Shown one piece after another: positions 56 through 36,465 of a stretch of 40,587 bases of DNA. Position 1 is the first letter of the stretch, and every line of letters starts with the position of its first letter. The stretch is from a virus. The translations under genes and the position numbers were made by a program. The notes under the pieces are model-generated. The model searched no databases and had not been told where the DNA came from. It saw nothing but the letters and a program-made list of their open reading frames with translations. Location of the stretch: the IMG/VR virus record IMGVR_UViG_3300045988_159944. One strand, given 5' to 3'.

Positions 56-572
56 AAAAACGTGGCATAAAACCGATACCTATACCGATATACCCTTCCC
101 GACCCCTCCCGCCGGCAAACCGAAGCAAACCGGAACCGAACCGCCGGACGCCGGCTACGAGCGGCTCGCCGAAACCTATCCCGGCACCGTCGGCACGAAA
201 GGCCGCAAACCCGACCTCGAAGCCCGAAGCCTGTACGCGAAAATCGCCGAGAACCCCGCCCAGCTCGCCCGACTCCAATCCGCCGTCCGCCGATACCAGC
301 GAGCCGTCAACGACGGCCAAATCCGCACGGGACACATCCCACGGCTCAACACATGGCTCCGCGACCAATGGCAGACCTGGGCACCCGAACCCACCACACC
401 AACCCGACCACACCGCCACACCTGGGACTGCGAACACGTCCACCGGATCATGGACCCCCACGAAAACGAATACGACCACACCGGCAGCCTCCGCACCGGC
501 AACCCAAGCGAATGGTACAAAGCCTGCGTCCAGGCAGCCAACCAACTCAACGAACAGGAGAAACAATCATGA
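1..572 (+). CDS. Replisome-organizer / replication-initiator-like protein, 3' part of the wrap-around gene join(40025..40587,56..572)
   Basis: The frame of ORF 36..572 is continuous with the open frame from ATG 40025 once the 55-bp duplicate is removed (total 1080 nt). The C-terminal part has the YxxLxxxYP...K..K...A...Y.K / ...P.L..WL.dq.W pattern seen in phage DnaD-like or replisome-organizer C-terminal regions. Confidence 0.65.
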   Translation, partial: GEQDGSETSSKLLANSQAKTWHKTDTYTDIPFPTPPAGKPKQTGTEPPDAGYERLAETYPGTVGTKGRKPDLEARSLYAKIAENPAQLARLQSAVRRYQRAVNDGQIRTGHIPRLNTWLRDQWQTWAPEPTTPTRPHRHTWDCEHVHRIMDPHENEYDHTGSLRTGNPSEWYKACVQAANQLNEQEKQS

Positions 573-1960
573 GCAACTACCACCAGAGCAACGAAATCAA
601 GCTCATCAACCCCAGCCTCATCGACCCACACCCAGACAATCCACGCAAAAACATCGGCGACGTGACCGACCTCGCCGCCAGCATCAAAGCCAACGGACTC
701 CTCTCACCCCTCAGCGTCGTACCCAACGGCAGCCGCTACCGTGTCATCGCCGGCCACCGCAGGCTCGCCGCATGCAAACAGGCCGGAACCGGAGCCATCC
801 CATGCTTCGTGCTCCAGCTCGACCCATTGCAGCAGCTCGAAGCCATGGTCACGGAGAACACGCAGCGTGAGCAGTTGACCGTGCTTGAGGAGGCTGACGC
901 CATCCAGGGCATGCTCGATCTGGGAGCCACCACCGCCGGCGTGGCGCATCGGCTCGGCCGAAGCGCCGACTACGTGCGTGACCGCGCCAAGGCCGCCAGC
1001 ATCGACAACGAGGTCAGAGCGACCCGTGACGACTTCTCCCAGCTCACCATCGGCCAGCTCGTGGCCATCGCACGATACGACGGCCAGCCGGATCGGCAGA
1101 AGGAGCTCGCGCAGGCGGCCGGCACCCCGAACTTCGACTACGTCCTCCACAACATCGAACGCGAGGACCGTGCCCGCCGATGGCTCGAATCGGTCGCCGC
1201 GCTCCTCGGGGACGAAACCAACGGCCTTAACCTCATCCCGGAACCGGAAAAACCGTTCAACGACCCCGAATGGCGTTACGACGGCTGGGTCGGCGCGGCC
1301 TCCGGCACACCCGAAGAGACGTTGGAGTACCTCCGGGAGCAACGACCCGACGCAGTCTCCATCCACGAGGAGACCCGCCAGATCTACCTGTGGCACCGCC
1401 GGGACCGGGCCGCCGCCTCCGCCGAGGAGGAACGACGGGCGCTCGAACGGGCCGAACGCGACGCGAGGATCCATGCGCTCGAGGAATACGCCGCCGCCTC
1501 CGCCTCCAAACGCATGGCATGGCTCCACAGCCATCTCCACGCCATCAAACGCTCCCAGCTCATCGAAACGGCCGCGAAGCTCGGACTCCTGCAAATCACC
1601 GACCCCATCCCAGGCGGTCTCGTCGACGCCCTCACCAGCTGGAACGACCACACCGGCAGCCGCGAGGAATACGAGAAGATCACCGGCATCCCCGCCGCGG
1701 ACGCCCCGCACACCGCCCACACCATCCTGCAAACCTCCGACTGGCCACCGGAGGCCGTATCCATCCTCGCCAGCCGCATCGAATGGTTCATCGAACCATC
1801 CGACTGGACCGACGTCAACGACACCAGCCGCCGCATCCCCGGCTACTACCAGATCCTCCAAGACATCGGATACCAGCCCGCAGACGACGAAACCAGCCAC
1901 CTCGACCAACTCATCGCCGCCATCACGGAAGCCGACCAAGACGAAGAGAACGACCAATGA
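569..1960 (+). CDS. ParB-like nuclease domain (ParB/Srx N-terminal) protein
   Basis: ATG 569 overlaps the upstream stop (ATGA), with aggag upstream. The N-terminus reads IDPHPDNPRK...LAASIKANGLLSPLSV...YRVIAGHRRLAAC, a classic ParB-box GxRR motif. The long C-terminal extension is of unknown function. Confidence 0.85.
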   Translation: MSNYHQSNEIKLINPSLIDPHPDNPRKNIGDVTDLAASIKANGLLSPLSVVPNGSRYRVIAGHRRLAACKQAGTGAIPCFVLQLDPLQQLEAMVTENTQREQLTVLEEADAIQGMLDLGATTAGVAHRLGRSADYVRDRAKAASIDNEVRATRDDFSQLTIGQLVAIARYDGQPDRQKELAQAAGTPNFDYVLHNIEREDRARRWLESVAALLGDETNGLNLIPEPEKPFNDPEWRYDGWVGAASGTPEETLEYLREQRPDAVSIHEETRQIYLWHRRDRAAASAEEERRALERAERDARIHALEEYAAASASKRMAWLHSHLHAIKRSQLIETAAKLGLLQITDPIPGGLVDALTSWNDHTGSREEYEKITGIPAADAPHTAHTILQTSDWPPEAVSILASRIEWFIEPSDWTDVNDTSRRIPGYYQILQDIGYQPADDETSHLDQLIAAITEADQDEENDQ

Positions 1961-3179: not shown

Positions 3180-3427
3180 CGGTCCAGGCGCACACGGCAT
3201 GGCGATACCGGAATCCCGCCGACCTGATCGGCCGGCGATGCATCGCACTCACCCGCATGGACGTCACGTTGGACGGCCCACTGGACCTGATCCGGTTGAG
3301 CCCGGTCCACGCGGTCCTGAAATACCAGGGCATCGGCCTGCACATCATCGACTGCGACCTGCGCCACCACACGAACAAGCCCGCCGACGGCATCCGGACC
3401 GTCATCATCACGGAAAGCAAACCATGA
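3176..3427 (+). CDS. Hypothetical protein (83 aa)
   Basis: ORF with ATGA coupling at both ends. Confidence 0.55.
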   Translation: MTVQAHTAWRYRNPADLIGRRCIALTRMDVTLDGPLDLIRLSPVHAVLKYQGIGLHIIDCDLRHHTNKPADGIRTVIITESKP

Positions 3428-3678
3428 AACACATGAGAAACATCATCCATCCGCACATCAGGAAATGGCACAAGACCAGCCCATGCCCATACTGCGGCAC
3501 AAGGAAACCCAACATCGAACACTACGCCCGAATCATCGGAGCCACGACCCGCTTCTTCTGGATCGCCAAATGCCGTGGATGCCCGAACGCCATCTGGATC
3601 ACGACCCCGGACGACGACATCAAAACCGCAATACGCGGATGGAACCGATACGCCAACGGAGAATGGCGCAAGCGATAG
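3424..3678 (+). CDS. Lar-family-like zinc-ribbon protein (candidate restriction alleviation)
   Basis: Internal ATG 3424 is coupled to the upstream stop. The pattern PCPYCG...x24...C.GC......DDDIKTAIRGWNRY resembles the CPFCG...C..C...eeAi.aWNrr signature of the Lar family. Confidence 0.5.
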   Translation: MKHMRNIIHPHIRKWHKTSPCPYCGTRKPNIEHYARIIGATTRFFWIAKCRGCPNAIWITTPDDDIKTAIRGWNRYANGEWRKR

Positions 3679-3690
3679 GAGGAAACCGAA

Positions 3691-4029
3691 ATGAAAAGAA
3701 AAACCAGGATGGCGCTCGCCGCCAACGGGAGGGAGGAACGCGATACGCGGAACACGTTCCGATGCCGACGCGGCGAACTCACCACGAGTGACATGAGGGA
3801 GAGGGATAAGGTCCTCAGCGAACTCATCGAATGGCTTGGCGGGGAACGTGATTACGTGCTGCAATGGCGCGGGAAGGATGGGAAGGGCCTTGTCAATGAC
3901 CCGGTGCGGCCGGTTGATTTTTGGACGCATGAAGCAAACGTCTTCGCACGCGTGATTCGTCACTGTGAATCCATGCTCGGTCATGGCGGGCCAATGCCCA
4001 CGGAAGTGAAAGCAAGGGGTGTGAAATGA
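3691..4029 (+). CDS. Hypothetical protein (112 aa)
   Basis: ggagga RBS 6 nt upstream. The stop overlaps the next start. Confidence 0.55.
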   Translation: MKRKTRMALAANGREERDTRNTFRCRRGELTTSDMRERDKVLSELIEWLGGERDYVLQWRGKDGKGLVNDPVRPVDFWTHEANVFARVIRHCESMLGHGGPMPTEVKARGVK

Positions 4030-4415
4030 GTGGGAGACGCAATCTGGCGGCGGCTCATGCCGGGTACATGACCTGGGATCCGCCGGAGGTCCGTTGCCGT
4101 GGATGCGAGTGCCGCTTCGACTCGTGGCAGGCGTTCGGCGAGCACGTGGACAGGCTGTTCTCGGCCCCGCCGCGGTCCAGGGCGCAGGCCGTGAAGGACG
4201 TGCTGGCCGACCATCTGGGTGACTTCGATTCGGAAGGCGTCCTCGGGCCGTGCATCAACGGCCATGGCCGCATCGTTTGCGGTTGCGGCTGGATGGCGAG
4301 GGGCTCGGACATCGAGGACTGGTATGGCCATCTCGCCACTGCGATCCAGACCGGGCTGGACGGCGTGGCCGCCGAAGCGATCGGGGGACACGCGACCGAT
4401 GAGCCGGGCGAGTAA
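4026..4415 (+). CDS. Hypothetical Cys/His-containing protein (129 aa)
   Basis: ATGA-coupled ORF containing CRGCEC and CGCG clusters. Confidence 0.55.
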   Translation: MSGRRNLAAAHAGYMTWDPPEVRCRGCECRFDSWQAFGEHVDRLFSAPPRSRAQAVKDVLADHLGDFDSEGVLGPCINGHGRIVCGCGWMARGSDIEDWYGHLATAIQTGLDGVAAEAIGGHATDEPGE

Positions 4416-4425
4416 GGGGACGGGT

Positions 4426-4602
4426 ATGGAGGACAGGATGCTCAGATCCCGTGAGGCCGCGCGGATGATCGGGATCTCGCCTAGGACGTTGGCGAAGTGG
4501 CGTCAGAGGGGCATCGGCCCGCAATGCGTGAGATTGGGATACAACCTCGTGATCTACCGCCTCTCGGACATCGACGCATGGATACGGGAGCATGAGGCAT
4601 AG
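4426..4602 (+). CDS. Excisionase/MerR-type (HTH_17-like) small DNA-binding protein
   Basis: aagggga RBS. Sequence is MLRSREAARMIGISPRTLAKWRQRGIGP..V.LG....YRLSDIDAWI. Confidence 0.75.
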   Translation: MEDRMLRSREAARMIGISPRTLAKWRQRGIGPQCVRLGYNLVIYRLSDIDAWIREHEA

Positions 4603-4679
4603 AAAAGAGCCCACCGTCTCCGGCGGGCCCTGGCATCATCACCAACCAGCCTACACCACCGGAAGCGGGAATCGAACAA

Positions 4680-5540
4680 ATGAACGAACCAACCAACGAA
4701 TCCCAACCAACGCCAAGCCAGATACAACCAGCACAAACTAACCCAAACAAGCCGGCGCCCGCTGGCATGTGCCAAGTGTGCGGCAGGGAGTGCCGCATCC
4801 GGACCACACTCTGCGAAGGGTGCGAGATCACCTTGAAGGGTTGGATCCGCGACTATCCCGTCTGGATCCGTGCCCTGCGTGAATTCCTGGATTCGACCGC
4901 CCACTATGGTGGACGTCAGTCCTGGCGCGTCAACCTGCCGGCCGCACCCACGCCGATTAGACTGTCGGTTATCGACCATCTGCGGGAGATCGAGGATGCG
5001 ACGACCGCGTTATGGCGCCGGCTATATGCGCCGCCGGCCATGCCATGGGCCACGAGCATCGTCCACCCGCCGATCGTGGACATGCTGAAGGCCTGCTGGT
5101 CATGCCGTCGACTGAACCGCCTACCGGACATCGGGCTCATCTATGACGACTGGCGGCGGCTGGCACGCAGGACCCTCAGCGTCATCGACGTGCCACCCGC
5201 CAAACACGGCATCGGCAGATGCCTGAACCCGCTGTGCGGCGTGAAACTAACGGCGGAGGTCGGAGCGGCAAGCGTCGCATGTCCCGTATGCGGCAACGTT
5301 TACCGCGTGGTGGACGTGCGGTTGGGATTCCTGAGGGAGTGCATCGAATCGGGCAGGGCGTTCACGGCGGGGGAGTGCGCGGAGCTGTTGCGCGAATGCG
5401 GATTCCAATGCAATGCGAACACGATTCGCTCATGGCGCAAGCGCGGCAGGATCCAGCCGGCCGGCCAGAACGAGAAGGGCCGGCCGTTGTACCGGCTTTC
5501 CGACGTCCACCGGCAGGTGTCGCGACGCGACTCGATTTGA
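4680..5540 (+). CDS. Multi-zinc-ribbon protein with a C-terminal HTH_17-like domain (candidate regulator)
   Basis: CxxC pairs are present (CQVCGREC..C.GC; CLNPLCG...CPVCG). The C-terminus ECAELLRECGF..NANTIRSWRKRGRI.....G.PLYRLSDV resembles the protein encoded at 4426..4602. It is the last gene before a strong hairpin and the packaging genes. Confidence 0.65.
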   Translation: MNEPTNESQPTPSQIQPAQTNPNKPAPAGMCQVCGRECRIRTTLCEGCEITLKGWIRDYPVWIRALREFLDSTAHYGGRQSWRVNLPAAPTPIRLSVIDHLREIEDATTALWRRLYAPPAMPWATSIVHPPIVDMLKACWSCRRLNRLPDIGLIYDDWRRLARRTLSVIDVPPAKHGIGRCLNPLCGVKLTAEVGAASVACPVCGNVYRVVDVRLGFLRECIESGRAFTAGECAELLRECGFQCNANTIRSWRKRGRIQPAGQNEKGRPLYRLSDVHRQVSRRDSI

Positions 5541-27564: not shown

Positions 27565-28695
27565 TTATGCGGCGTCAACGGTTCCTTCTGACAACATTTT
27601 GACAACATTCCCGCGAAGCAGCAGAGCGTCCATCGCAGCGCCCACCTCGTCGAGGTCGTCGTCGAAAAGGTCGGCGTAGACGTCCAGGGTCATCGCCGCC
27701 GACGCATGCCCGAGCTGGTTCTGGATCGCCTTGACGTTCGCGCCGGACCTGACCATGAGGCTCGCGGCGGTGTGACGCAGGTCGTGATAGGTCAGGCCGG
27801 CAGGCACGCCGGCACGCCTCTTCGCCCACCAGAACCACTTCGTCCTGTCGTTCGGCTGCGCCGTGCGGACGAGATACCCTCCGTCCGGCGCGGGGAACAG
27901 CGGCTCGCCGCCATCCCTTCCACCGCACTGGTCGCGCAACGGCCCGTCCAGCACGCCCGGGAACACCACCCGTCTCGTCTCGCCGGACTTCGGCAGATCC
28001 ACCACCACGCCGTGCCCCACCGTGGTCGCGCTCCTTCTGACGCTCAGCCGATGCCGGACGAAGTCCACGTCGGCGACGTGCAGCCCGGCCATCTCGCCCC
28101 ATCTCAGCCCGCACAGGCCGAGCACGAGCACCATCGTGCGGCGTTCGCCGGATTCGTCGGCGAGGCGGAACAACTGTTCGACGGTGAGGTACGTGTGGTC
28201 CTTGCGTTTCTTGCGTGGGGTCTCGATCCCGGCGCATGGGTTGGATGCGATGAGACGGTCGGCGCATGCGTCGGCGCAGATGCCCCGCAGTATGCCGAGG
28301 TTGCGCAGCACCACGGTCGCGCTTTTGCCCTGCGCCTGGCCGGTGACCCATTCCTGCACCTCGTTGCGGTGGATCGACGAGAGCCGCCGGACGCCCCATT
28401 TGGGTTCCACGTGCACGCGCCATGCGCGTTCCAGGGATTCCACGTAGCTCGCCTTCGAGGACACGCGTTTCTTCGCGATCCATGCCGGCCATAGGCCGCC
28501 GACCGTGACCCTGCCTGCCTGCGGGTCGATGAAGCCGCCCCGTGCGACCGCCATCGTCACATGCTCCGCGGCCCATTCCTGCGCGTCGCGTTTGCGCAGG
28601 AAGCCTCGCTTGCATGTCTGCGACCCGTCCGGCTTGCGGTAGGTCACCCTCCATCGCCTGCCGGCCTTCAGCATGTACGAATCGATCACCGCCAT
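27565..28695 (-). CDS. int: Tyrosine integrase
   Basis: Motifs: ...LGLCGLRWGE...; HDLRHTAASLMVRSGANVKAIQNQLGHASAAMTLDVYADLF (R..H.R.Y catalytic signature). gaggtgg RBS before ATG 28695; the ORF is open to GTG 28710. Confidence 0.95.
   Translation of the reverse strand: MAVIDSYMLKAGRRWRVTYRKPDGSQTCKRGFLRKRDAQEWAAEHVTMAVARGGFIDPQAGRVTVGGLWPAWIAKKRVSSKASYVESLERAWRVHVEPKWGVRRLSSIHRNEVQEWVTGQAQGKSATVVLRNLGILRGICADACADRLIASNPCAGIETPRKKRKDHTYLTVEQLFRLADESGERRTMVLVLGLCGLRWGEMAGLHVADVDFVRHRLSVRRSATTVGHGVVVDLPKSGETRRVVFPGVLDGPLRDQCGGRDGGEPLFPAPDGGYLVRTAQPNDRTKWFWWAKRRAGVPAGLTYHDLRHTAASLMVRSGANVKAIQNQLGHASAAMTLDVYADLFDDDLDEVGAAMDALLLRGNVVKMLSEGTVDAA
27590..27610 (+). repeat. Second gacaacatttt gacaacatt block (candidate arm-type site, P' arm), inside the integrase 3' coding end
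   Basis: Direct repeat of 27381..27402. It encodes NVVKMLS of the integrase C-terminal tail on the minus strand. Confidence 0.55.
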
Positions 28696-28893
28696 CACGC
28701 ACCACCTCACGGCTCCATGCGACCTCGTGGAGCCTCTTTCAAATGTCCGGAACCGGAAAACGACGTCGGATGACCGGACCGCGCATGCCTCCCATGGTTC
28801 TTTCGCCCGGCGGTGAAGTGCAGCATGATGCGCATGCGCTTATGACTGACATTGATTAACATTACTGACATTACCGGCAACTCGCCAAAAACG

Positions 28894-30331: not shown

Positions 30332-30440
30332 TTGAATTTATTCGGTTTTCCTGATGACTACCGAAATCACCGGAATGTGTCAGGATTATCCAGATTGTGA
30401 AGAAACGTTGACGACGCTACCGACGCATCGGTAGATTGAA
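30332..30440 (+). repeat. About 109-bp intergenic repeat, copy B (plus promoter P3)
   Basis: See copy A at 29635..29742. Confidence 0.85.
30408..30437 (+). promoter_or_regulatory. Promoter P3: TTGACG-N18-TAGATT
   Basis: Identical to P2 through the -10. The downstream leader differs. Confidence 0.55.
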
Positions 30441-30462
30441 AACTAAAACAGGGAGGCGCGCG

Positions 30463-30993
30463 ATGAAGTCCATGACATATGGCGAGGCAAGACAGATTGC
30501 GCGCGATCTCGCAAGGGACACATTGGAGAACTACTGGCCGTCCGGTTCCTATCCGGTGGATCCAGTGGCAATCGCGCGGCGTGCCGGCATAGAGGTGTAC
30601 AGCTCACAACTCGGGACGGATACATGGGGGATGCTTGTCGGCGGCGACAACAACGTCACCATGTACCTCGACAAGGACCAGCCGCTAAACAGAATGCGTT
30701 TCAGCGCCGCGCATGAGCTCGGCCATTACATGACGCACACCACGTCTGACGAGCGGCTTTCAGATTATGTCAAGGCAATACCCGTCGGTAAAGGATACAC
30801 GGACAAACGCAGTGATGCCGGACGTGGCAATCTCTTCGAAGTGATCGCCAACGAATTCGCCGGCGCGCTTCTCATGCCGGAACCCGAACTGCGAAGAATG
30901 ACGAAGGCCGGAGACAGCAACATATCCATAGCAAAGGCATTTCATGTATCCGTGGACGCTGTAGCGTATAGACGAAAGATTCTTGCGCTGTGA
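30463..30993 (+). CDS. ImmA/IrrE-family (COG2856) zinc metallopeptidase
   Basis: gggagg RBS. Motifs: RFSAAHELGHY (HExxH); EFAGALLMP; the typical C-terminal ...IA..F.VS..A...R. Confidence 0.85.
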   Translation: MKSMTYGEARQIARDLARDTLENYWPSGSYPVDPVAIARRAGIEVYSSQLGTDTWGMLVGGDNNVTMYLDKDQPLNRMRFSAAHELGHYMTHTTSDERLSDYVKAIPVGKGYTDKRSDAGRGNLFEVIANEFAGALLMPEPELRRMTKAGDSNISIAKAFHVSVDAVAYRRKILAL

Positions 30994-32650: not shown

Positions 32651-33088
32651 TCACTGCACACACACGCCGGAATCGTGGAGCAGCTGCCGATAGTCCGTCA
32701 ACACTTGGATCGTGACATCCAATTCGACGGCCATCATCCACATATTGCCTTCATACACCTGCTCCGCCATGCCGTAATCCACCGGGCTGATCAACACCGA
32801 CGCGGTCTCCCTGCGACACCGGAGCTCACATTTGGCGCCGTACGAGGCGCCGCATCCGGGATCGTGATGCCAGGCGTGGATGAGCTCATGGCACAGGGTG
32901 CAGTAGTGTTGGCGTTGGTTGAGCCAGTCGGCCAGCAGGATGAGTTTGTGATGGTCGTCGTACAAGCCGCATATGTCGCGTGGAAGGTCACGCGACATGA
33001 CTGACAGGCCCATGTATTCCGCGTTCCGGCGAAGCTCCGCGATGGTCTTGTTATCCACATTCCTCTCCTCTGAAAAGCACTCTTTCAC
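32651..33088 (-). CDS. ImmA/IrrE-like (COG2856) metallopeptidase, second copy
   Basis: Motif LCHELIHAWHHD (HExxH). Preceded by ...GLYDDHHKLILL.. as in family members. The start is uncertain (GTG 33088, GTG 33058 after gaggagagg, or ATG 33013). Confidence 0.7.
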   Translation of the reverse strand: MKECFSEERNVDNKTIAELRRNAEYMGLSVMSRDLPRDICGLYDDHHKLILLADWLNQRQHYCTLCHELIHAWHHDPGCGASYGAKCELRCRRETASVLISPVDYGMAEQVYEGNMWMMAVELDVTIQVLTDYRQLLHDSGVCVQ

Positions 33089-33198: not shown

Positions 33199-33732
33199 TT
33201 ATTGGATTGCATCACCTGCTGATGAGGCATTTTCATATTGTCGAATCAGCTTGTTGTAACTGTGCTCGCGGTCGACGTAATAAGCGGTTACAAGAAGGCA
33301 ATACTTCTTGTCCTTATGTGGTTCCAGTACGACAAGGTACTTTTCTGGAACGATAAGAATGTGAACTCTGTTTCGGTGTCCCTTCCTGTACCACCAAGCA
33401 AGTGGTCTCTCGCATACTGAGTATGAGCATTGCGGGCAATTGTCGTAGTGTTCGATTGTCTGTCGTGGGTACCTGATGCGTTCGCATCTGCGAAGGTCGA
33501 CGTCACGTTTTCCTGTGACTTTGTCGTCCACGCTTGTGATATGGAAAAATCCAGCCCATTTTCCATCGCTTTCCTCGAGCTGACGTCGTACGTTTACCCT
33601 CAGTCCATTGAATTCAGGATGGGAATCGATGAAATCGGATTTGAAAACTGAGTAGATGCGATCCTCATACAGGGGGAAATCCTCGAAGGGGGACTTCGGC
33701 ATTAGCTCTGGTGTCCAATGAGGTGAAATCAT
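33199..33732 (-). CDS. Uncharacterised Cys-rich protein, translationally coupled partner of the DUF3800-like gene
   Basis: ATGA overlap with the upstream stop. Contains a CPQCSYSVC cluster. No family recognised by eye. Confidence 0.65.
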   Translation of the reverse strand: MISPHWTPELMPKSPFEDFPLYEDRIYSVFKSDFIDSHPEFNGLRVNVRRQLEESDGKWAGFFHITSVDDKVTGKRDVDLRRCERIRYPRQTIEHYDNCPQCSYSVCERPLAWWYRKGHRNRVHILIVPEKYLVVLEPHKDKKYCLLVTAYYVDREHSYNKLIRQYENASSAGDAIQ

Positions 33733-34433
33733 GAGCGTTTCCCCTCCCAGACGAAGATGTTGAGCTTGCGCGTACCCAGGGTCGTTGACTGGGTGAGCCG
33801 GAGCCTTGATCTCATGCGTATGTAGTCGATGATTTCAGCTTTCGCGCCTGATGGTTGGGGAATGGTCGTCCGGTTCGCCCTGCAGACGGCTCCGTTGATT
33901 ACATCGGTGATCTGCATCATCTGCACTTCGTCCGAACGGATTGGCTGCACCTTCTTGATGCACTCGTGGTTGAAGTCACGATGGCTGTTCGCAAGCACTT
34001 CCTCTAGTTTTTCGGTACGTTGCGCAGAGTGTGTGTCCTTGATGTCCACGTACACGTTGTAGGTGTTTGCGGAATCGAACAGCCTGTCCAACATGGTGAA
34101 ATACATCTTGTAGTACCAATCGTTGTGCGACTGGGACCATGCTTCATGATTCAGACGCGTCTTCTTGGCCACAAGAACACGGAACCTCATGTCGTCATCC
34201 AGGAAGAAGCAGTTCAGCAGATCCTTGTACAGGTCGATTTTTGGCATGCTGGCCTTCGTCCACTTCACTTCCGTACGTGCCTTGACGCCATAACGTGCCT
34301 TGATCTGGAGGATATTCTCCGTGATCTCCTGCCTTTTATCCTTGGGGATGATGAGGGCTCCAAGGACCATCACGTCGCTGTCATCGTGTTCCAGATGACA
34401 GCTCTCATCGCAATACAGGTTGTATTCAGTCAT
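33729..34433 (-). CDS. DUF3800-like protein
   Basis: Internal ATG 34433 after aaagga. The N-terminus MTEYNLYCDESCH matches the i.iDESG start typical of DUF3800. A second acidic/His region follows (YVDIKDTHS; SDEVQMMQITDVI). Confidence 0.7.
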   Translation of the reverse strand: MTEYNLYCDESCHLEHDDSDVMVLGALIIPKDKRQEITENILQIKARYGVKARTEVKWTKASMPKIDLYKDLLNCFFLDDDMRFRVLVAKKTRLNHEAWSQSHNDWYYKMYFTMLDRLFDSANTYNVYVDIKDTHSAQRTEKLEEVLANSHRDFNHECIKKVQPIRSDEVQMMQITDVINGAVCRANRTTIPQPSGAKAEIIDYIRMRSRLRLTQSTTLGTRKLNIFVWEGKRS

Positions 34434-34452
34434 TCGCGTTCCTTTCGATTTG

Positions 34453-34626
34453 TCATTCGTCTGGCGTCTCTGCCTCGAGCCGCGCGTTCGGATCTCTGTT
34501 CGCGGCCACGTCGTAGTCCTCCGGGTGCGCGGCGATACGGTCCACCAGATCATCCGTGATCCGGGACTCGCGCTCGCGGGCTTCGTAGGCGCGGGCGGCC
34601 TCTATAAGCAGAGTCCCGACATTCAT
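34453..34626 (-). CDS. Possible small acidic protein (57 aa)
   Basis: ATG 34626 to a stop 20 nt before the DUF3800-like start. The block is GC-rich, unlike its neighbours. The ATG lies in the loop of the 34611..34645 hairpin, and no RBS is seen. Confidence 0.3.
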   Translation of the reverse strand: MNVGTLLIEAARAYEARERESRITDDLVDRIAAHPEDYDVAANRDPNARLEAETPDE

Positions 34627-34666
34627 TAAACGGACATCGGGACTCGAACTATTTTCAAATGGTCTG

Positions 34667-35758
34667 TTAGAGAAGGCGGCGTACCTCTTCACGAATTTGT
34701 TCAGAGTATGCATAGATACCATTGAGCGTATCAATGGGCATGCGCTCGCAGTTCTTATTCTCGTCGAAGATTCCAAGATATTTTTGTTTGGTATTGAAAT
34801 AAAGGCGAACGATCGGTTTGCGGTTGTTGTCATCAAGGAATATTGCGCAGTATTTCTTCGCGTCCCTCATGGTTACTCGTTCTGGATCAACATCGCTGCA
34901 GGCAATGGCTTTGACAATGCGGTATCCAGCGATTTCCTCTTCAGTGGTGATGATTCCATCATCTTCCTTGCTTTCGGATTCATCCTCGGCGATTTCATTC
35001 TCGCCGGATTCGTCAGCCTCCATCACTCCAACCTTAATGTCATCGGCGCCTAGGGCGGTCTTGAGCCGGTCATTAACCTGGTCAGAGAGGAATTGTTTAA
35101 GAGCCTTACCGACCAGCGGTCTGAATTTATCCATGATGGAAGCGTAGAAGGAGCCATCGTACACATGGCTAGCGAGCAGTTTTACAAACTCGTCGGAGGG
35201 GCTCTTGAATTCCTCTCCAATGGCCCTTTTGAGTGCTCCGACGTATTTGAGTTCTTCCGCGCTGCTGGCGATTGAATCGAGATCAAATGCTGGCTTTGTC
35301 AGCTTTTGCAATGCCGGCAGTACTGTCGGATCGATATCGAGGAGATCTAGAACGAGGAACGGCTTGGAATCCATGCGGTTCGGCTCGTCGATGTCCATGT
35401 AGAAATTCCAGACTTGTCCGTTGGTCAGAACACCGATACGTGCGTTCGTGACAGCGAAGTAACGGTACAGTTGGCTTGCGTTCTCTAGGCTTAGCTGTGC
35501 CTCGATCTTCTTGCATTCGATAAGAATCTGAACTTGATCGTCATGCACGAGCGCGTAATCAACCTTCTCGCCTTTTTTCACTCCAACATCAGCGGTGAAT
35601 TCTGGTACAACCTCGGTTGGATTGAATACATCATAGCCGAGCACTTGGCCGATGAACGGCATAATAAACGCGTTCTTCGTAGCCTCTTCAGTCTCGATTC
35701 CGTCCTTCAGATCGCGTACCTTTGCGGCAACCTGATTAAGGCTCTCTTCAAATTCCAT
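34667..35758 (-). CDS. HsdR_N-type (type I restriction R-subunit N-terminal-like) PD-(D/E)xK nuclease-domain protein, stand-alone
   Basis: gggagag RBS. Motifs: EEATKNAFIMPFI..LGYDVF....V.PEF........KVDYAL......ILIECKK (D...E.K). A C-terminal domain follows after an acidic linker. No helicase or methylase is nearby. Confidence 0.75.
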   Translation of the reverse strand: MEFEESLNQVAAKVRDLKDGIETEEATKNAFIMPFIGQVLGYDVFNPTEVVPEFTADVGVKKGEKVDYALVHDDQVQILIECKKIEAQLSLENASQLYRYFAVTNARIGVLTNGQVWNFYMDIDEPNRMDSKPFLVLDLLDIDPTVLPALQKLTKPAFDLDSIASSAEELKYVGALKRAIGEEFKSPSDEFVKLLASHVYDGSFYASIMDKFRPLVGKALKQFLSDQVNDRLKTALGADDIKVGVMEADESGENEIAEDESESKEDDGIITTEEEIAGYRIVKAIACSDVDPERVTMRDAKKYCAIFLDDNNRKPIVRLYFNTKQKYLGIFDENKNCERMPIDTLNGIYAYSEQIREEVRRLL

Positions 35759-35773
35759 TGCTGCTCTCCCTTC

Positions 35774-36121
35774 TTATTTGGTTTTAATTGAATCTTCGGT
35801 TTTGATACGGTCAGCCCACTTATCGATGTCAATATCTTCGTGGGATGTCTCAAAATCACTTATAACATCTGGGTCTTTGCTGAGTGCATCAGCGTCGGCG
35901 ATGATTTGTGCCAAGGGTGTTCGTAGCGCTGTTGCGATGCGTTGCAATTGTTCGTAATCGGCAACAGTGTTTAATTCAAGAATTTTGCGCAAAGTACCAT
36001 AAGGTACGCCTGAGGCGTCAGCCAAGGCTGGACCACGCATATCTCTTGTTGTCATTGCGCGCTTAATCGCTATCGAAAGAGCCTTCGACTCGATAGTCGG
36101 AATCTTTGTTCCACGTGCCAT
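35774..36121 (-). CDS. XRE-family HTH repressor (CI-like)
   Basis: Motif ...MRGPALADASGVPYGTLRKILE... (HTH). Divergent from the Cro-like gene across an operator-rich 83-bp spacer. Confidence 0.8.
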   Translation of the reverse strand: MARGTKIPTIESKALSIAIKRAMTTRDMRGPALADASGVPYGTLRKILELNTVADYEQLQRIATALRTPLAQIIADADALSKDPDVISDFETSHEDIDIDKWADRIKTEDSIKTK

Positions 36122-36134
36122 ACAAGGGATTTTA

Positions 36135-36220
36135 GTTCCAACTGGAACATGAAAGTTCCATATAGGACACGCCGAGTTTTGTAAAGGTTTTTATTGGGCT
36201 TATCATGTTCTGTATGGAAC
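36135..36220. promoter_or_regulatory. Genetic-switch operators: three 14-bp GTTCC-N4-GGAAC-type palindromes
   Basis: GTTCCAACTGGAAC at 36135..36148; GTTCCATATAGGAC at 36155..36168; GTTCTGTATGGAAC at 36207..36220. Confidence 0.6.
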
Positions 36221-36465
36221 ACGAAAAGGTCTTAAAAGAACAAATGACATCCCAACAACTCGGTAAAGCAGTGAAAGCTACTTTCAAAAAAGCTGGCTTG
36301 ACACAAGAGGAAGCTGGCATCAAAACCGGCATTCCACGCAACAGCCTCAACCGCAAGCTCAACGGCGGAACATTCAACTTCGATGAGCTTGTTCGGATCA
36401 GCCAAGTCACTGGTCGCAAGCTCTCCGAAATCATTTCCGACGCTGAAGCGCTCGCTAGCGCTTGA
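36205..36465 (+). CDS. XRE-family HTH protein (Cro-like)
   Basis: Motif LGKAVKATFKKAGLTQEEAGIKTGIPRNSLNRKLNG. Alternative start at ATG 36214. Confidence 0.8.
   Translation: MFCMEHEKVLKEQMTSQQLGKAVKATFKKAGLTQEEAGIKTGIPRNSLNRKLNGGTFNFDELVRISQVTGRKLSEIISDAEALASA

What the first reader, a model, noticed from the sequence alone, without database searches (positions are those of the whole stretch)
34667..36121. Stand-alone HsdR_N-type PD-(D/E)xK nuclease placed 15 bp behind the CI-like repressor
Seen: the repressor stop codon (35776..35774) and the nuclease ATG (35758) are separated by 15 nt that contain a gggagag RBS. I see no terminator between them, so the nuclease is probably co-transcribed from the maintenance promoter. 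The protein has the VDYAL...ILIECKK core and a distinct C-terminal domain after an acidic linker. There is no methyltransferase, helicase or specificity subunit anywhere in the window.

Inference: this would be a lysogen-expressed nuclease with no obvious self-protection partner. It could be a restriction-like, exclusion or DNA-sensing effector.
Basis: partly seen in the sequence, partly recalled or inferred. Interest (0 to 1): 0.62.

Follow-up and report, generated by a model that had tools for sequence, protein, structure and literature searches.

The report
Promoterless nuclease cassette behind phage repressor
A Bifidobacterium-type temperate phage carries, 15 bases behind its repressor gene, a stand-alone DNA-cutting enzyme of unknown function that has no promoter or partner gene of its own; the same cassette sits behind unrelated repressors in phages of several phyla, so it is a good but untested candidate for a lysogen-expressed anti-phage nuclease.

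Summary
A 363-aa ORF (34667..35758, minus strand) starts 15 nt after the stop of a 115-aa CI-like HTH gene, behind a GGGAGAG ribosome-binding site, with no terminator-like structure between them.

The protein has four parts: an HsdR-head-type PD-(D/E)xK nuclease with invariant D67, E81-x-K83 and Q96xxxY100; a helical connector; a non-conserved acidic linker; and a well-folded 95-aa C-terminal domain with no Pfam, PDB or BFVD match.

New here: in related Bifidobacterium phages only the unit RBS + ORF + downstream hairpin (35786..34590) is conserved behind different upstream genes. The gene is therefore a promoterless cassette that depends on the repressor-operon transcript.

In 77 IMG/VR loci, 62 have a same-strand gene ending within 125 nt upstream, mostly HTH or HTH+S24 repressors of several unrelated families. 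Only 13 of 78 chromosomal loci do.

The family is very large, patchy (2/29, 45/201 and 190/5426 genomes) and has no conserved partner or DNA methyltransferase. It is not a Type I enzyme, despite its database name, and is absent from PADLOC.

The most likely role is a partnerless, lysogen-expressed defence nuclease, in the same position as BstA and RexAB. A defence role is unproven, and many chromosomal copies lie among housekeeping genes. RNA-seq could not be run. The scan noted the same arrangement in another genome.

The parts
36135..36220 (.). Switch region between the divergent repressor-like and Cro-like HTH genes. It holds three 14-bp operator-like palindromes of the form GTTCCAnnTGGAAC, at 36135-36148, 36155-36168 and 36207-36220.
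   Evidence: the repeat finder. The divergent HTH genes are 35774..36121 (-) and 36205..36465 (+).
35774..36121 (-). CI-like repressor, 115 aa, Cro/C1-type HTH.
   Evidence: PHROG 4583 'transcriptional repressor' E = 1.9e-7. Pfam HTH_3 is weak at E = 0.003, below the gathering score. The assignment rests on the divergent arrangement with a Cro-like gene across the operators.
35759..35786 (-). 5' boundary of the cassette: the repressor stop codon plus a 15-nt spacer with the GAAGGGAG(AG) ribosome-binding site. There is no conserved promoter.
   Evidence: Sequence read directly. In loci with unrelated upstream genes, homology to the window starts at 35779-35786 and only the ribosome-binding site and ATG align.
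35339..35758 (-). Nuclease domain, residues 1-140: an HsdR-head-type PD-(D/E)xK fold with D67, E81-x-K83 and Q96xxxY100.
   Evidence: Pfam HSDR_N E = 2.5e-11. Residues invariant in A1 and A2. The best Foldseek hits are the DrdV nuclease domain and HsdR fragments, at E about 0.02-0.1. pLDDT above 90.
35048..35338 (-). Helical connector, residues 141-237, with long helices at 160-185 and 206-236.
   Evidence: AlphaFold model. No Pfam match. Mean pairwise identity 0.61.
34955..35047 (-). Disordered acidic linker, residues 238-268.
   Evidence: pLDDT below 50. 14 D/E against 2 K/R in 31 residues; mean pairwise identity 0.16.
34670..34954 (-). C-terminal alpha-beta5-alpha domain, residues 269-363, of unknown function. 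Invariant residues include T271, T272, E275, R298, D299, Y303, N311, N312 and R318.
   Evidence: Modelled alone: pLDDT 94, pTM 0.86. No PDB or BFVD fold match at E <= 0.001. No Pfam or PDB sequence match. Found in 1855 representative clusters, almost always together with this nuclease.
34611..34645 (-). Conserved hairpin 22 nt after the stop codon, with a 12-bp stem GAGUCCCGAUGU/AUGUCGGGACUC. It marks the 3' boundary of the cassette and is a candidate terminator without a U-tail.
   Evidence: The 86-nt stretch containing it folds to -23.9 kcal/mol, z = -2.47. The stem is essentially unchanged in 11 related loci (one mismatch each at two stem positions) while the loop and flanks vary, with no covariation. 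Homology blocks end just beyond it.

Best explanation
The gene is a promoterless accessory cassette made of a ribosome-binding site, the ORF and a hairpin. It rides on the transcript of the prophage repressor operon, so any cell that makes repressor (a lysogen) should also make the protein.

The protein is the nuclease head of Type I/IIL restriction enzymes, with all catalytic residues intact. It is detached from any motor or methylase. A helical connector and a floppy acidic linker join it to a conserved, previously undescribed C-terminal domain.

I propose that it cuts incoming or replicating foreign DNA in lysogens, as superinfection defence or exclusion. I further propose that it tells self from non-self without a cognate methylase, using the conserved C-terminal domain to recognise a generic feature such as a modified base, a DNA end or structure, or a small ligand, rather than a variable DNA sequence.

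Shown:
- the anatomy of the protein
- the catalytic motifs
- the cassette boundaries
- the recurrent linkage to repressors
- the absence of a partner gene

Inferred:
- transcription in lysogens
- nuclease activity
- the defence role
- the nature of the ligand
For: Operon placement:
- 15-nt spacer with a ribosome-binding site, and no terminator or significant structure at the junction.
- In related phages the conserved block is cro, operators, repressor, nuclease and hairpin, while the cargo downstream is swapped. In L099, L100, L104 and L112 only 35786..34590 is conserved, behind an M78-peptidase gene.
- 62 of 77 IMG/VR loci have a same-strand upstream gene within 125 nt, against 13 of 78 chromosomal loci.
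- Those upstream genes match HTH_3 in 45, Peptidase_S24 in 28 and Peptidase_M78 in 7 of 77. They fall into 32 clusters from phages of 34-69% GC.
- The same order is seen in Corynebacterium phage Juicebox, Streptococcus phage IPP25 and a Coriobacteriaceae prophage.

Active nuclease:
- HSDR_N E = 2.5e-11, and phrog_4225 'endonuclease' E = 7e-124 over the full length.
- D67, E81, K83, Q96 and Y100 are invariant.
- The best fold matches are the nuclease domains of DrdV and HsdR.

Partnerless accessory gene:
- No neighbour cluster occurs in more than 9 of 80 loci, and no Pfam family in more than 3 of 150 neighbours.
- Patchy distribution: 2/29, 45/201 and 190/5426 genomes.
- At least 10-14 switches between viral and chromosomal copies on the tree.
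- About 12 of 150 chromosomal neighbours hit defence models, including MADS, AbiU, IetA, Dol and DrmC.
- hicAB lies next to it in E. coli and in a Porphyromonas phage.

Generic ligand:
- The C-terminal domain is about as conserved as the rest of the protein (0.59 mean identity), unlike restriction specificity domains.

Precedent:
- BstA lies downstream of cI, presumably shares its promoter and has its own terminator. Lambda rexAB occupies the same site (PMC8585504).
Against:
- There are no phenotype data in the held literature. The only mention is an anecdotal strain difference in Campylobacter.
- The protein matches no PADLOC model, including the PDC candidates built from defence-island enrichment.
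- Chromosomal copies in Pseudomonas marincola and Arthrobacter lie among metabolic and transport genes.
- A 49-member, purely chromosomal actinobacterial clade roughly follows taxonomy.
- Very high conservation (55% identity between Bifidobacterium phage and Pseudomonas copies) is unusual for proteins in an arms race.
- The C-terminal domain resembles none of the known modified-base readers.
- The hairpin has no U-tail and shows no covariation.
Confidence: 0.5

Rival explanations
1. It is a cellular DNA-maintenance or stress-response nuclease (repair, recombination-intermediate processing or similar). It benefits the host directly, and temperate phages carry it as a fitness gene rather than an immune gene.
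For: - Solitary copies lie among housekeeping genes.
- A large chromosomal clade tracks taxonomy.
- All folded domains are strongly conserved.
- There is no PADLOC hit.
- Rare fusions exist to TerD stress-response domains and to a borderline SeqA-C-like domain.
Against: - Patchy presence (7%, 22% and 3.5% of genomes) is not what a core repair function shows.
- At least 389 viral contigs carry it.
- Its fixed position in the repressor operon is the classical slot for exclusion and defence genes.
- Some neighbours are defence genes.
Confidence: 0.22
2. It serves the phage's own life cycle under repressor-operon control, for example in establishing or maintaining lysogeny, or in processing DNA at induction together with the ImmA-type protease.
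For: It sits inside repressor / ImmA-protease / integrase operons in Juicebox, IPP25 and the Bifidobacterium phages.
Against: - Homologues function as lone chromosomal genes with no phage genes nearby.
- Closely related phages place it behind different upstream genes, as an interchangeable cassette.
- Other lineages place it convergent to the repressor or beside hicAB.
Confidence: 0.12
3. It is the toxin of an addiction or toxin-antitoxin-like pair, with the upstream Xre-type HTH protein acting as antitoxin, and so stabilises the prophage.
For: An Xre-type HTH gene followed closely by an effector gene is a common type II toxin-antitoxin layout. The upstream protein here is small and only weakly HTH_3. 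YdaS-type matches occur among upstream genes.
Against: - 28 of 77 upstream proteins carry a LexA/CI-type S24 autocleavage domain, and 7 are M78 peptidases.
- Upstream genes belong to many unrelated clusters while the nuclease stays the same.
- Chromosomal copies have no conserved HTH neighbour.
Confidence: 0.08
4. It is a decayed remnant or orphan subunit of a Type I restriction system that works only with a host HsdM/HsdS complex, or not at all.
For: NCBI names it 'type I restriction endonuclease', and Pfam HSDR_N matches.
Against: - It has no helicase motor and no methylase-binding domain.
- It is a full-length family of uniform size with invariant catalytic residues and very few pseudogenes.
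- No hsdM or hsdS is linked to it.
Confidence: 0.03

Closest known systems
BstA (Salmonella prophage BTP1) and lambda RexAB: defence genes placed directly downstream of the prophage repressor
   Same: Same-strand position immediately behind the repressor. The promoter is presumably shared, and the gene has its own hairpin or terminator. Both are prophage-associated but also occur outside prophages, and both are spread across distant bacteria (PMC8585504).
   Different: The proteins are unrelated: BstA has a KilA-N-like DNA-binding domain and no nuclease fold. Defence by BstA and RexAB has been demonstrated, whereas here it is only inferred. No self-immunity element like aba was looked for or found.
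N-terminal nuclease domain of Type I HsdR (EcoR124I, Vibrio vulnificus HsdR) and of Type IIL enzymes (DrdV)
   Same: The PD-(D/E)xK core with D...ExK and a following QxxxY. Pfam HSDR_N matches, and these domains are the best Foldseek hits.
   Different: There is no SF2 motor, no methyltransferase or target-recognition domain, and no hsdM/hsdS neighbours. The head is instead fused to a helical connector, an acidic linker and a new C-terminal domain.
Solitary modification-dependent (Type IV) and two-domain restriction nucleases such as PvuRts1I/AbaSI, MspJI and Mrr (comparison from general knowledge)
   Same: A single polypeptide with a PD-(D/E)xK cleavage domain tethered to a separate putative recognition domain, and no cognate methylase needed.
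   Different: The C-terminal domain shows no similarity to SRA, winged-helix or other known modified-base readers. Dependence on modification is untested.
PHROG family phrog_4225 ('endonuclease')
   Same: Full-length match at E = 7e-124, so the window protein is an ordinary member.
   Different: The PHROG entry is only an annotation label. No tested function, mechanism or genomic rule is attached to it.

Membership tests
[quoted passage not shown] | Full-length profile match with the same domain order | tested here: met
   phrog_4225 E = 7e-124, residues 1-361 of 363. More than 8000 90%-identity clusters of the same length.
Type I restriction enzyme HsdR subunit | N-terminal PD-(D/E)xK nuclease domain | tested here: met
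   Pfam HSDR_N E = 2.5e-11. D67, E81, K83, Q96 and Y100 are invariant.
Type I restriction enzyme HsdR subunit | SF2 helicase/translocase motor (ResIII/DEAD) and a C-terminal methylase-binding domain | tested here: not met
   No such Pfam matches. The protein is only 363 aa, and the rest is a helical connector, a linker and a new domain.
Type I restriction enzyme HsdR subunit | Linked hsdM and hsdS genes | tested here: not met
   None among the window ORFs scanned. No N6-methylase or HsdS family among 150 neighbours of 80 homologues.
Repressor-linked prophage defence locus (RexAB / BstA type) | Gene lies directly downstream of the prophage repressor on the same strand, and this is recurrent among homologues | tested here: met
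   15-nt gap in the window. 62 of 77 viral loci have a close same-strand upstream gene, with HTH_3 in 45 and S24 in 28 of 77.
Repressor-linked prophage defence locus (RexAB / BstA type) | Transcribed with the repressor during lysogeny | not testable with these tools
Indirect support: the cassette is conserved only from its ribosome-binding site onward, so it has no promoter of its own.
Repressor-linked prophage defence locus (RexAB / BstA type) | Confers resistance to other phages | not testable with these tools
   Needs plaque assays. No report was found in the held literature.
Type IV (modification-dependent) restriction endonuclease | No cognate methyltransferase | tested here: met
Type IV (modification-dependent) restriction endonuclease | A recognisable modified-base reading domain (SRA, EVE/ASCH, Mrr-N winged helix and similar) | tested here: not met
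   The C-terminal domain model (pLDDT 94) has no PDB or BFVD match at E <= 0.001. The best solved-structure resemblance is the frataxin fold, at TM 0.46.
Known or candidate defence systems in PADLOC-DB v2 | Match to any model | tested here: not met
   No hit at E <= 0.01 for the nuclease. The two genes downstream match PDC-M04A/B strongly.
Type II toxin-antitoxin pair (Xre antitoxin + toxin) | Conserved two-gene unit wherever the toxin occurs | tested here: not met
   No conserved neighbour in 80 chromosomal loci. Upstream genes in phages are of many unrelated kinds.

The most novel reading that the evidence does not exclude
This is a very widespread, so far uncatalogued single-protein immune nuclease. 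It is the cutting head of Type I/IIL restriction enzymes set free and coupled, through an acidic and possibly autoinhibitory linker, to a new conserved sensor domain that recognises a generic mark of invading DNA without any methylase. It spreads as a promoterless cassette that uses the repressor transcripts of temperate phages in at least three phyla, and has also settled as a lone chromosomal gene in soil actinobacteria, pseudomonads and 3.5% of E. coli genomes.
Probability: 0.35. Interest if true: 0.75.

Novelty: new variant of a known kind. Interest (0 to 1): 0.55.

Why it matters
If the protein is a defence nuclease, it would add a common single-gene system that current defence finders miss. 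It occurs in more than 8000 90%-identity protein clusters, at least 389 viral contigs, 22% of sampled Pseudomonas species and 190 complete E. coli genomes.

It would also show how a restriction nuclease head can work without a motor or a methylase, and would give a function to a new protein domain.

The cassette structure (ribosome-binding site, ORF, hairpin, no promoter) is a clear example of how accessory genes are plugged into the one prophage transcript that is guaranteed to be on in lysogens. This extends the BstA/RexAB rule to Gram-positive and actinobacterial phages.

For gut Bifidobacterium, it may influence which phages can superinfect lysogens.

If the protein turns out to be a repair or stress nuclease instead, the finding is of modest interest.

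Tried and rejected
- **The window's own genome.** It is not held, because the window is a virus record. Prevalence was therefore measured in the genera of two homologue-bearing genomes.
- **Sequence searches of the PDB.** The protein, the full-family profile and the C-terminal profile found nothing, even at E <= 10.
- **Foldseek.** The full model gave only weak hits to nuclease domains. The C-terminal domain gave no credible hit in the PDB or BFVD. The frataxin, YkuJ and PH-like resemblances (TM 0.46 or less) were rejected as non-significant.
- **Pfam on the isolated connector and C-terminal domain.** Nothing was found.
- **NCBIfam and PADLOC on the nuclease.** Nothing was found.
- **Literature.** Six full-text searches found no functional study of the family. 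The only mention is a Campylobacter strain difference. A Streptococcus agalactiae prophage paper (PMC8223999) proved irrelevant.
- **Hairpin as a proven terminator.** The stem is conserved but shows no covariation, and there is no U-tail. It is kept only as a candidate.
- **Toxin-antitoxin and orphan-HsdR readings.** Both were considered and given low weight, for the reasons listed under the rival explanations.
- **Gene calls in the fetched loci.** They are my own crude ORF picks, so individual neighbour assignments may be wrong even though the tallies are robust.
Full report
**1. What is in the sequence**

The window is a complete temperate-phage record of about 40.6 kb and 63% G+C.
- Structural and lysis genes fill roughly 1-27 kb.
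- A tyrosine integrase lies at 27565..28710 (-).
- A 7.4-kb accessory region of about 50% G+C follows.
- It ends at a divergent pair of HTH genes, 35774..36121 (-) and 36205..36465 (+).
- Between these genes are three operator-like palindromes, GTTCCAnnTGGAAC.

The leftward HTH gene is the likely CI-type repressor: phrog_4583 matches at E = 1.9e-7, and Pfam HTH_3 only weakly.

No minus-strand terminator-like site lies between the two genes. The junction folds no better than shuffled sequence, z = +1.27.

Twenty-two nucleotides after the nuclease stop there is a 12-bp hairpin at 34645..34611. The 86-nt stretch containing it folds to -23.9 kcal/mol, z = -2.47.

Further downstream on the same strand:
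- a PDC-M04A/B defence-candidate pair (PADLOC E = 5.5e-85 and 2.1e-76)
- an ImmA/IrrE-type M78 peptidase
- a HIRAN-like protein

**2. The protein**

Pfam HSDR_N matches residues 23-128 at E = 2.5e-11. PHROG family 4225 ('endonuclease') matches the full length at E = 7e-124. NCBIfam, PADLOC and PDB sequence searches give nothing.

In alignments reaching down to 43% identity (phages of Corynebacterium, Streptococcus and Porphyromonas) and across 64 actinobacterial and proteobacterial homologues, these residues are invariant: E24, E25, K28, D57, K61, E64, D67, E81, K83, Q96, R99, Y100, N113 and G114. This is the D...ExK core plus a QxxxY motif. From general knowledge, QxxxY is characteristic of HsdR and RecB-type nuclease heads.

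AlphaFold (mean pLDDT 85.6) gives four parts:
- a nuclease domain, residues 1-140
- a helical connector, 144-236
- a disordered stretch, 238-268
- an alpha-beta5-alpha domain, 270-363

Foldseek places the N-terminal part nearest the nuclease domains of DrdV (7lo5), Vibrio HsdR (3h1t) and EcoR124I, at weak E-values of 0.02-0.4.

The C-terminal domain was modelled alone (pLDDT 94, pTM 0.86). It has no match at E <= 0.001 in the PDB or BFVD, and no Pfam or PDB profile hit.

A profile of this domain finds 1855 representative clusters among 1.84 billion proteins. Of the 16 hits whose sequence or Pfam content I inspected, most are this same family or truncated copies of it. The exceptions are rare fusions with TerD, a borderline SeqA-C-like extension and one DUF4236 protein.

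Mean pairwise identity by domain is 0.70 (nuclease), 0.61 (connector), 0.16 (linker, 14 acidic residues of 31) and 0.59 (C-terminal domain).

The C-terminal domain is therefore not a fast-diverging specificity module like HsdS or a target-recognition domain. Whatever it binds is probably the same in Bifidobacterium and Pseudomonas. This last point is inference.

**3. The cassette and its link to repressors**

This is the main new result. I compared the window with related Bifidobacterium phage contigs from IMG/VR.
- In one set, homology runs from about 36480 to 34460-34570. This covers the Cro-like gene's 5' end, the operators, the repressor, the nuclease and the hairpin, and then stops.
- Even a 99%-identical relative (L094) lacks the PDC-M04 pair and carries other cargo there.
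- In a second set (L099, L100, L104, L112), homology covers only 35786..34590. The upstream gene is there a different one, an M78 peptidase.

An alignment of nine such junctions shows that only GAAGGGAG-N-ATG is shared. Everything upstream is unrelated.

The hairpin stem is essentially unchanged in 11 loci (one mismatch each at two stem positions), while its loop and flanks vary. No covariation was seen, so this is conservation, not proof of structure.

The mobile unit is thus ribosome-binding site + ORF + hairpin, with no space for a promoter of its own. That is strong indirect evidence that the gene depends on the upstream transcript.

At least 389 IMG/VR contigs encode a relative. Of the 77 viral loci analysed:
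- 68 have the upstream gene on the same strand, and 62 of those end within 125 nt of the nuclease start
- the upstream proteins match HTH_3 in 45, HTH_26 in 29, Peptidase_S24 in 28 and Peptidase_M78 in 7
- they fall into 32 sequence clusters, from phages of 34% to 69% G+C

Annotated phages show the same order:
- Corynebacterium phage Juicebox: repressor gp34, endonuclease gp33, metalloprotease gp32
- Streptococcus phage IPP25: repressor, a 127-aa protein, the nuclease, integrase
- a Coriobacteriaceae prophage: repressor, then the nuclease

Exceptions exist. In a B. scardovii-type prophage the nuclease is convergent to the repressor. In a Porphyromonas phage it follows hicAB.

**4. Outside phages**

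The family is very large. More than 8000 90%-identity clusters were scored, and at least 579 GTDB species representatives have a relative.

In 80 chromosomal loci:
- no neighbour cluster occurs in more than 9 loci
- no Pfam family occurs in more than 3 of 150 immediate neighbours
- there is no DNA methylase signal
- neighbour orientation is near random
- only 13 of 78 have a close same-strand upstream gene

Presence is patchy:
- 2 of 29 genomes in a Bifidobacterium-type genus
- 45 of 201 in a Pseudomonas-type genus, with a few frameshifted copies
- 190 of 5426 complete E. coli genomes, all chromosomal
- 47 plasmid records

About 12 of the 150 neighbours hit PADLOC models (mad2/mad3 in three, plus AbiU, IetA, DolB, DrmC and others). 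This is a modest signal.

Other copies lie among ordinary metabolic genes:
- P. marincola: selA-selB-NIPSNAP, the nuclease, then a chemoreceptor
- Arthrobacter: among transporter genes
- E. coli: between hicAB and aldB

A FastTree of 142 sequences needs 14 changes between viral and chromosomal labels at the fewest, of which well-supported branches force at least 10. It also shows a 49-member, purely chromosomal clade of soil actinobacteria that roughly follows taxonomy.

**5. Interpretation**

*Settled:*
- The protein is a stand-alone enzyme, not a Type I enzyme. It has no motor, no methylase-binding domain and no hsdM/hsdS.
- The catalytic residues are intact.
- In temperate phages it is an interchangeable, promoterless cassette placed in the repressor operon.

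*Likely:* it is made in lysogens and cuts DNA.

*Plausible but untested:* it protects lysogens against other phages. The position matches that of lambda rexAB and of BstA. [quoted passage not shown]

Because no methylase accompanies the gene and the C-terminal domain is conserved, I favour recognition of a generic feature (modified DNA, a DNA structure or end, or a ligand) over sequence-specific restriction.

The acidic linker might act as an autoinhibitory DNA mimic. That is speculation.

The main rival is a cellular repair or stress nuclease that phages carry as a fitness gene. It is supported by the housekeeping contexts, the taxonomy-tracking clade, the high conservation and the TerD fusions. 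Readings as a phage life-cycle function, a toxin-antitoxin pair or an orphan HsdR are weaker, for the reasons given under the rivals.

**6. Novelty and limits**

The family is already catalogued under uninformative or misleading names (phrog_4225; 'type I restriction endonuclease'). Six full-text searches found no functional study. The library lacks most subscription journals, so this is not proof of absence.

Three things appear to be new:
- the promoterless cassette
- its recurrent placement behind unrelated repressors across phyla
- the unassigned C-terminal domain

The scan had already noted the same 15-nt repressor-nuclease arrangement in another genome.

Limits:
- Expression could not be tested.
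- Neighbour genes in the fetched loci come from my own simple ORF picking.
- Viral loci are partly redundant, so the Fisher p-value overstates independence.
- Most structural-region ORFs of the window were checked for methylase motifs by pattern only.

Noticed in passing
window 33199-34553 (-): Directly downstream of the nuclease hairpin lies a strong copy of the PADLOC defence candidate PDC-M04 (DUF3800 protein plus partner; E = 5.5e-85 and 2.1e-76). It is absent from a 99%-identical relative phage (L094), so this slot holds swappable cargo.
   Followed up: partly
window 30436-30993 (+) and 32651-33088 (-): The phage carries two ImmA/IrrE-type M78 peptidases, and neither is adjacent to the repressor. 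In sister phages an M78 peptidase gene sits directly upstream of the nuclease cassette.
   Followed up: partly
window 36135-36220: Three operator-like palindromes, GTTCCAnnTGGAAC, lie between the divergent HTH genes. A TAAAAT about 8 nt before the repressor ATG, with no ribosome-binding site, suggests a leaderless repressor mRNA.
   Followed up: partly
window 353-1960 (+): A 535-aa protein has a ParB N-terminal domain (E = 4.8e-13) and an unassigned remainder of about 360 aa. No methyltransferase motif was found in it.
   Followed up: no
P0186, P0214, P0191, P0226 (representative proteins): Rare variants of the family carry an extra TerD domain at either end. Others carry a C-terminal extension with a borderline match to the SeqA C-terminal domain, which binds hemimethylated GATC (E = 2.5e-5, just under the Pfam cut-off). 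These are possible clues to regulation or to DNA-methylation reading.
   Followed up: partly
L178 (E. coli CFSAN018748, 601351-603517) and L003 (Porphyromonas phage, 3244-5071): A hicA-hicB toxin-antitoxin pair lies next to the nuclease gene in two very distant lineages. In E. coli the islet sits beside aldB near selAB, and in Pseudomonas marincola the gene is also next to selAB. This may be coincidence or an insertion hotspot.
   Followed up: no
L057 (Sphaerisporangium) and L060 (Cellulosimicrobium): Nearly identical nuclease proteins (branch lengths 0.003 and 0) occur in genomes of two different actinobacterial families. This points to very recent transfer or to assembly contamination.
   Followed up: no
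L009-L011 (Pseudoscardovia suis-type contigs): The homologue is a lone gene with about 1 kb of non-coding DNA upstream, near a DEDDh/RNase T exonuclease gene, with no phage genes nearby.
   Followed up: no
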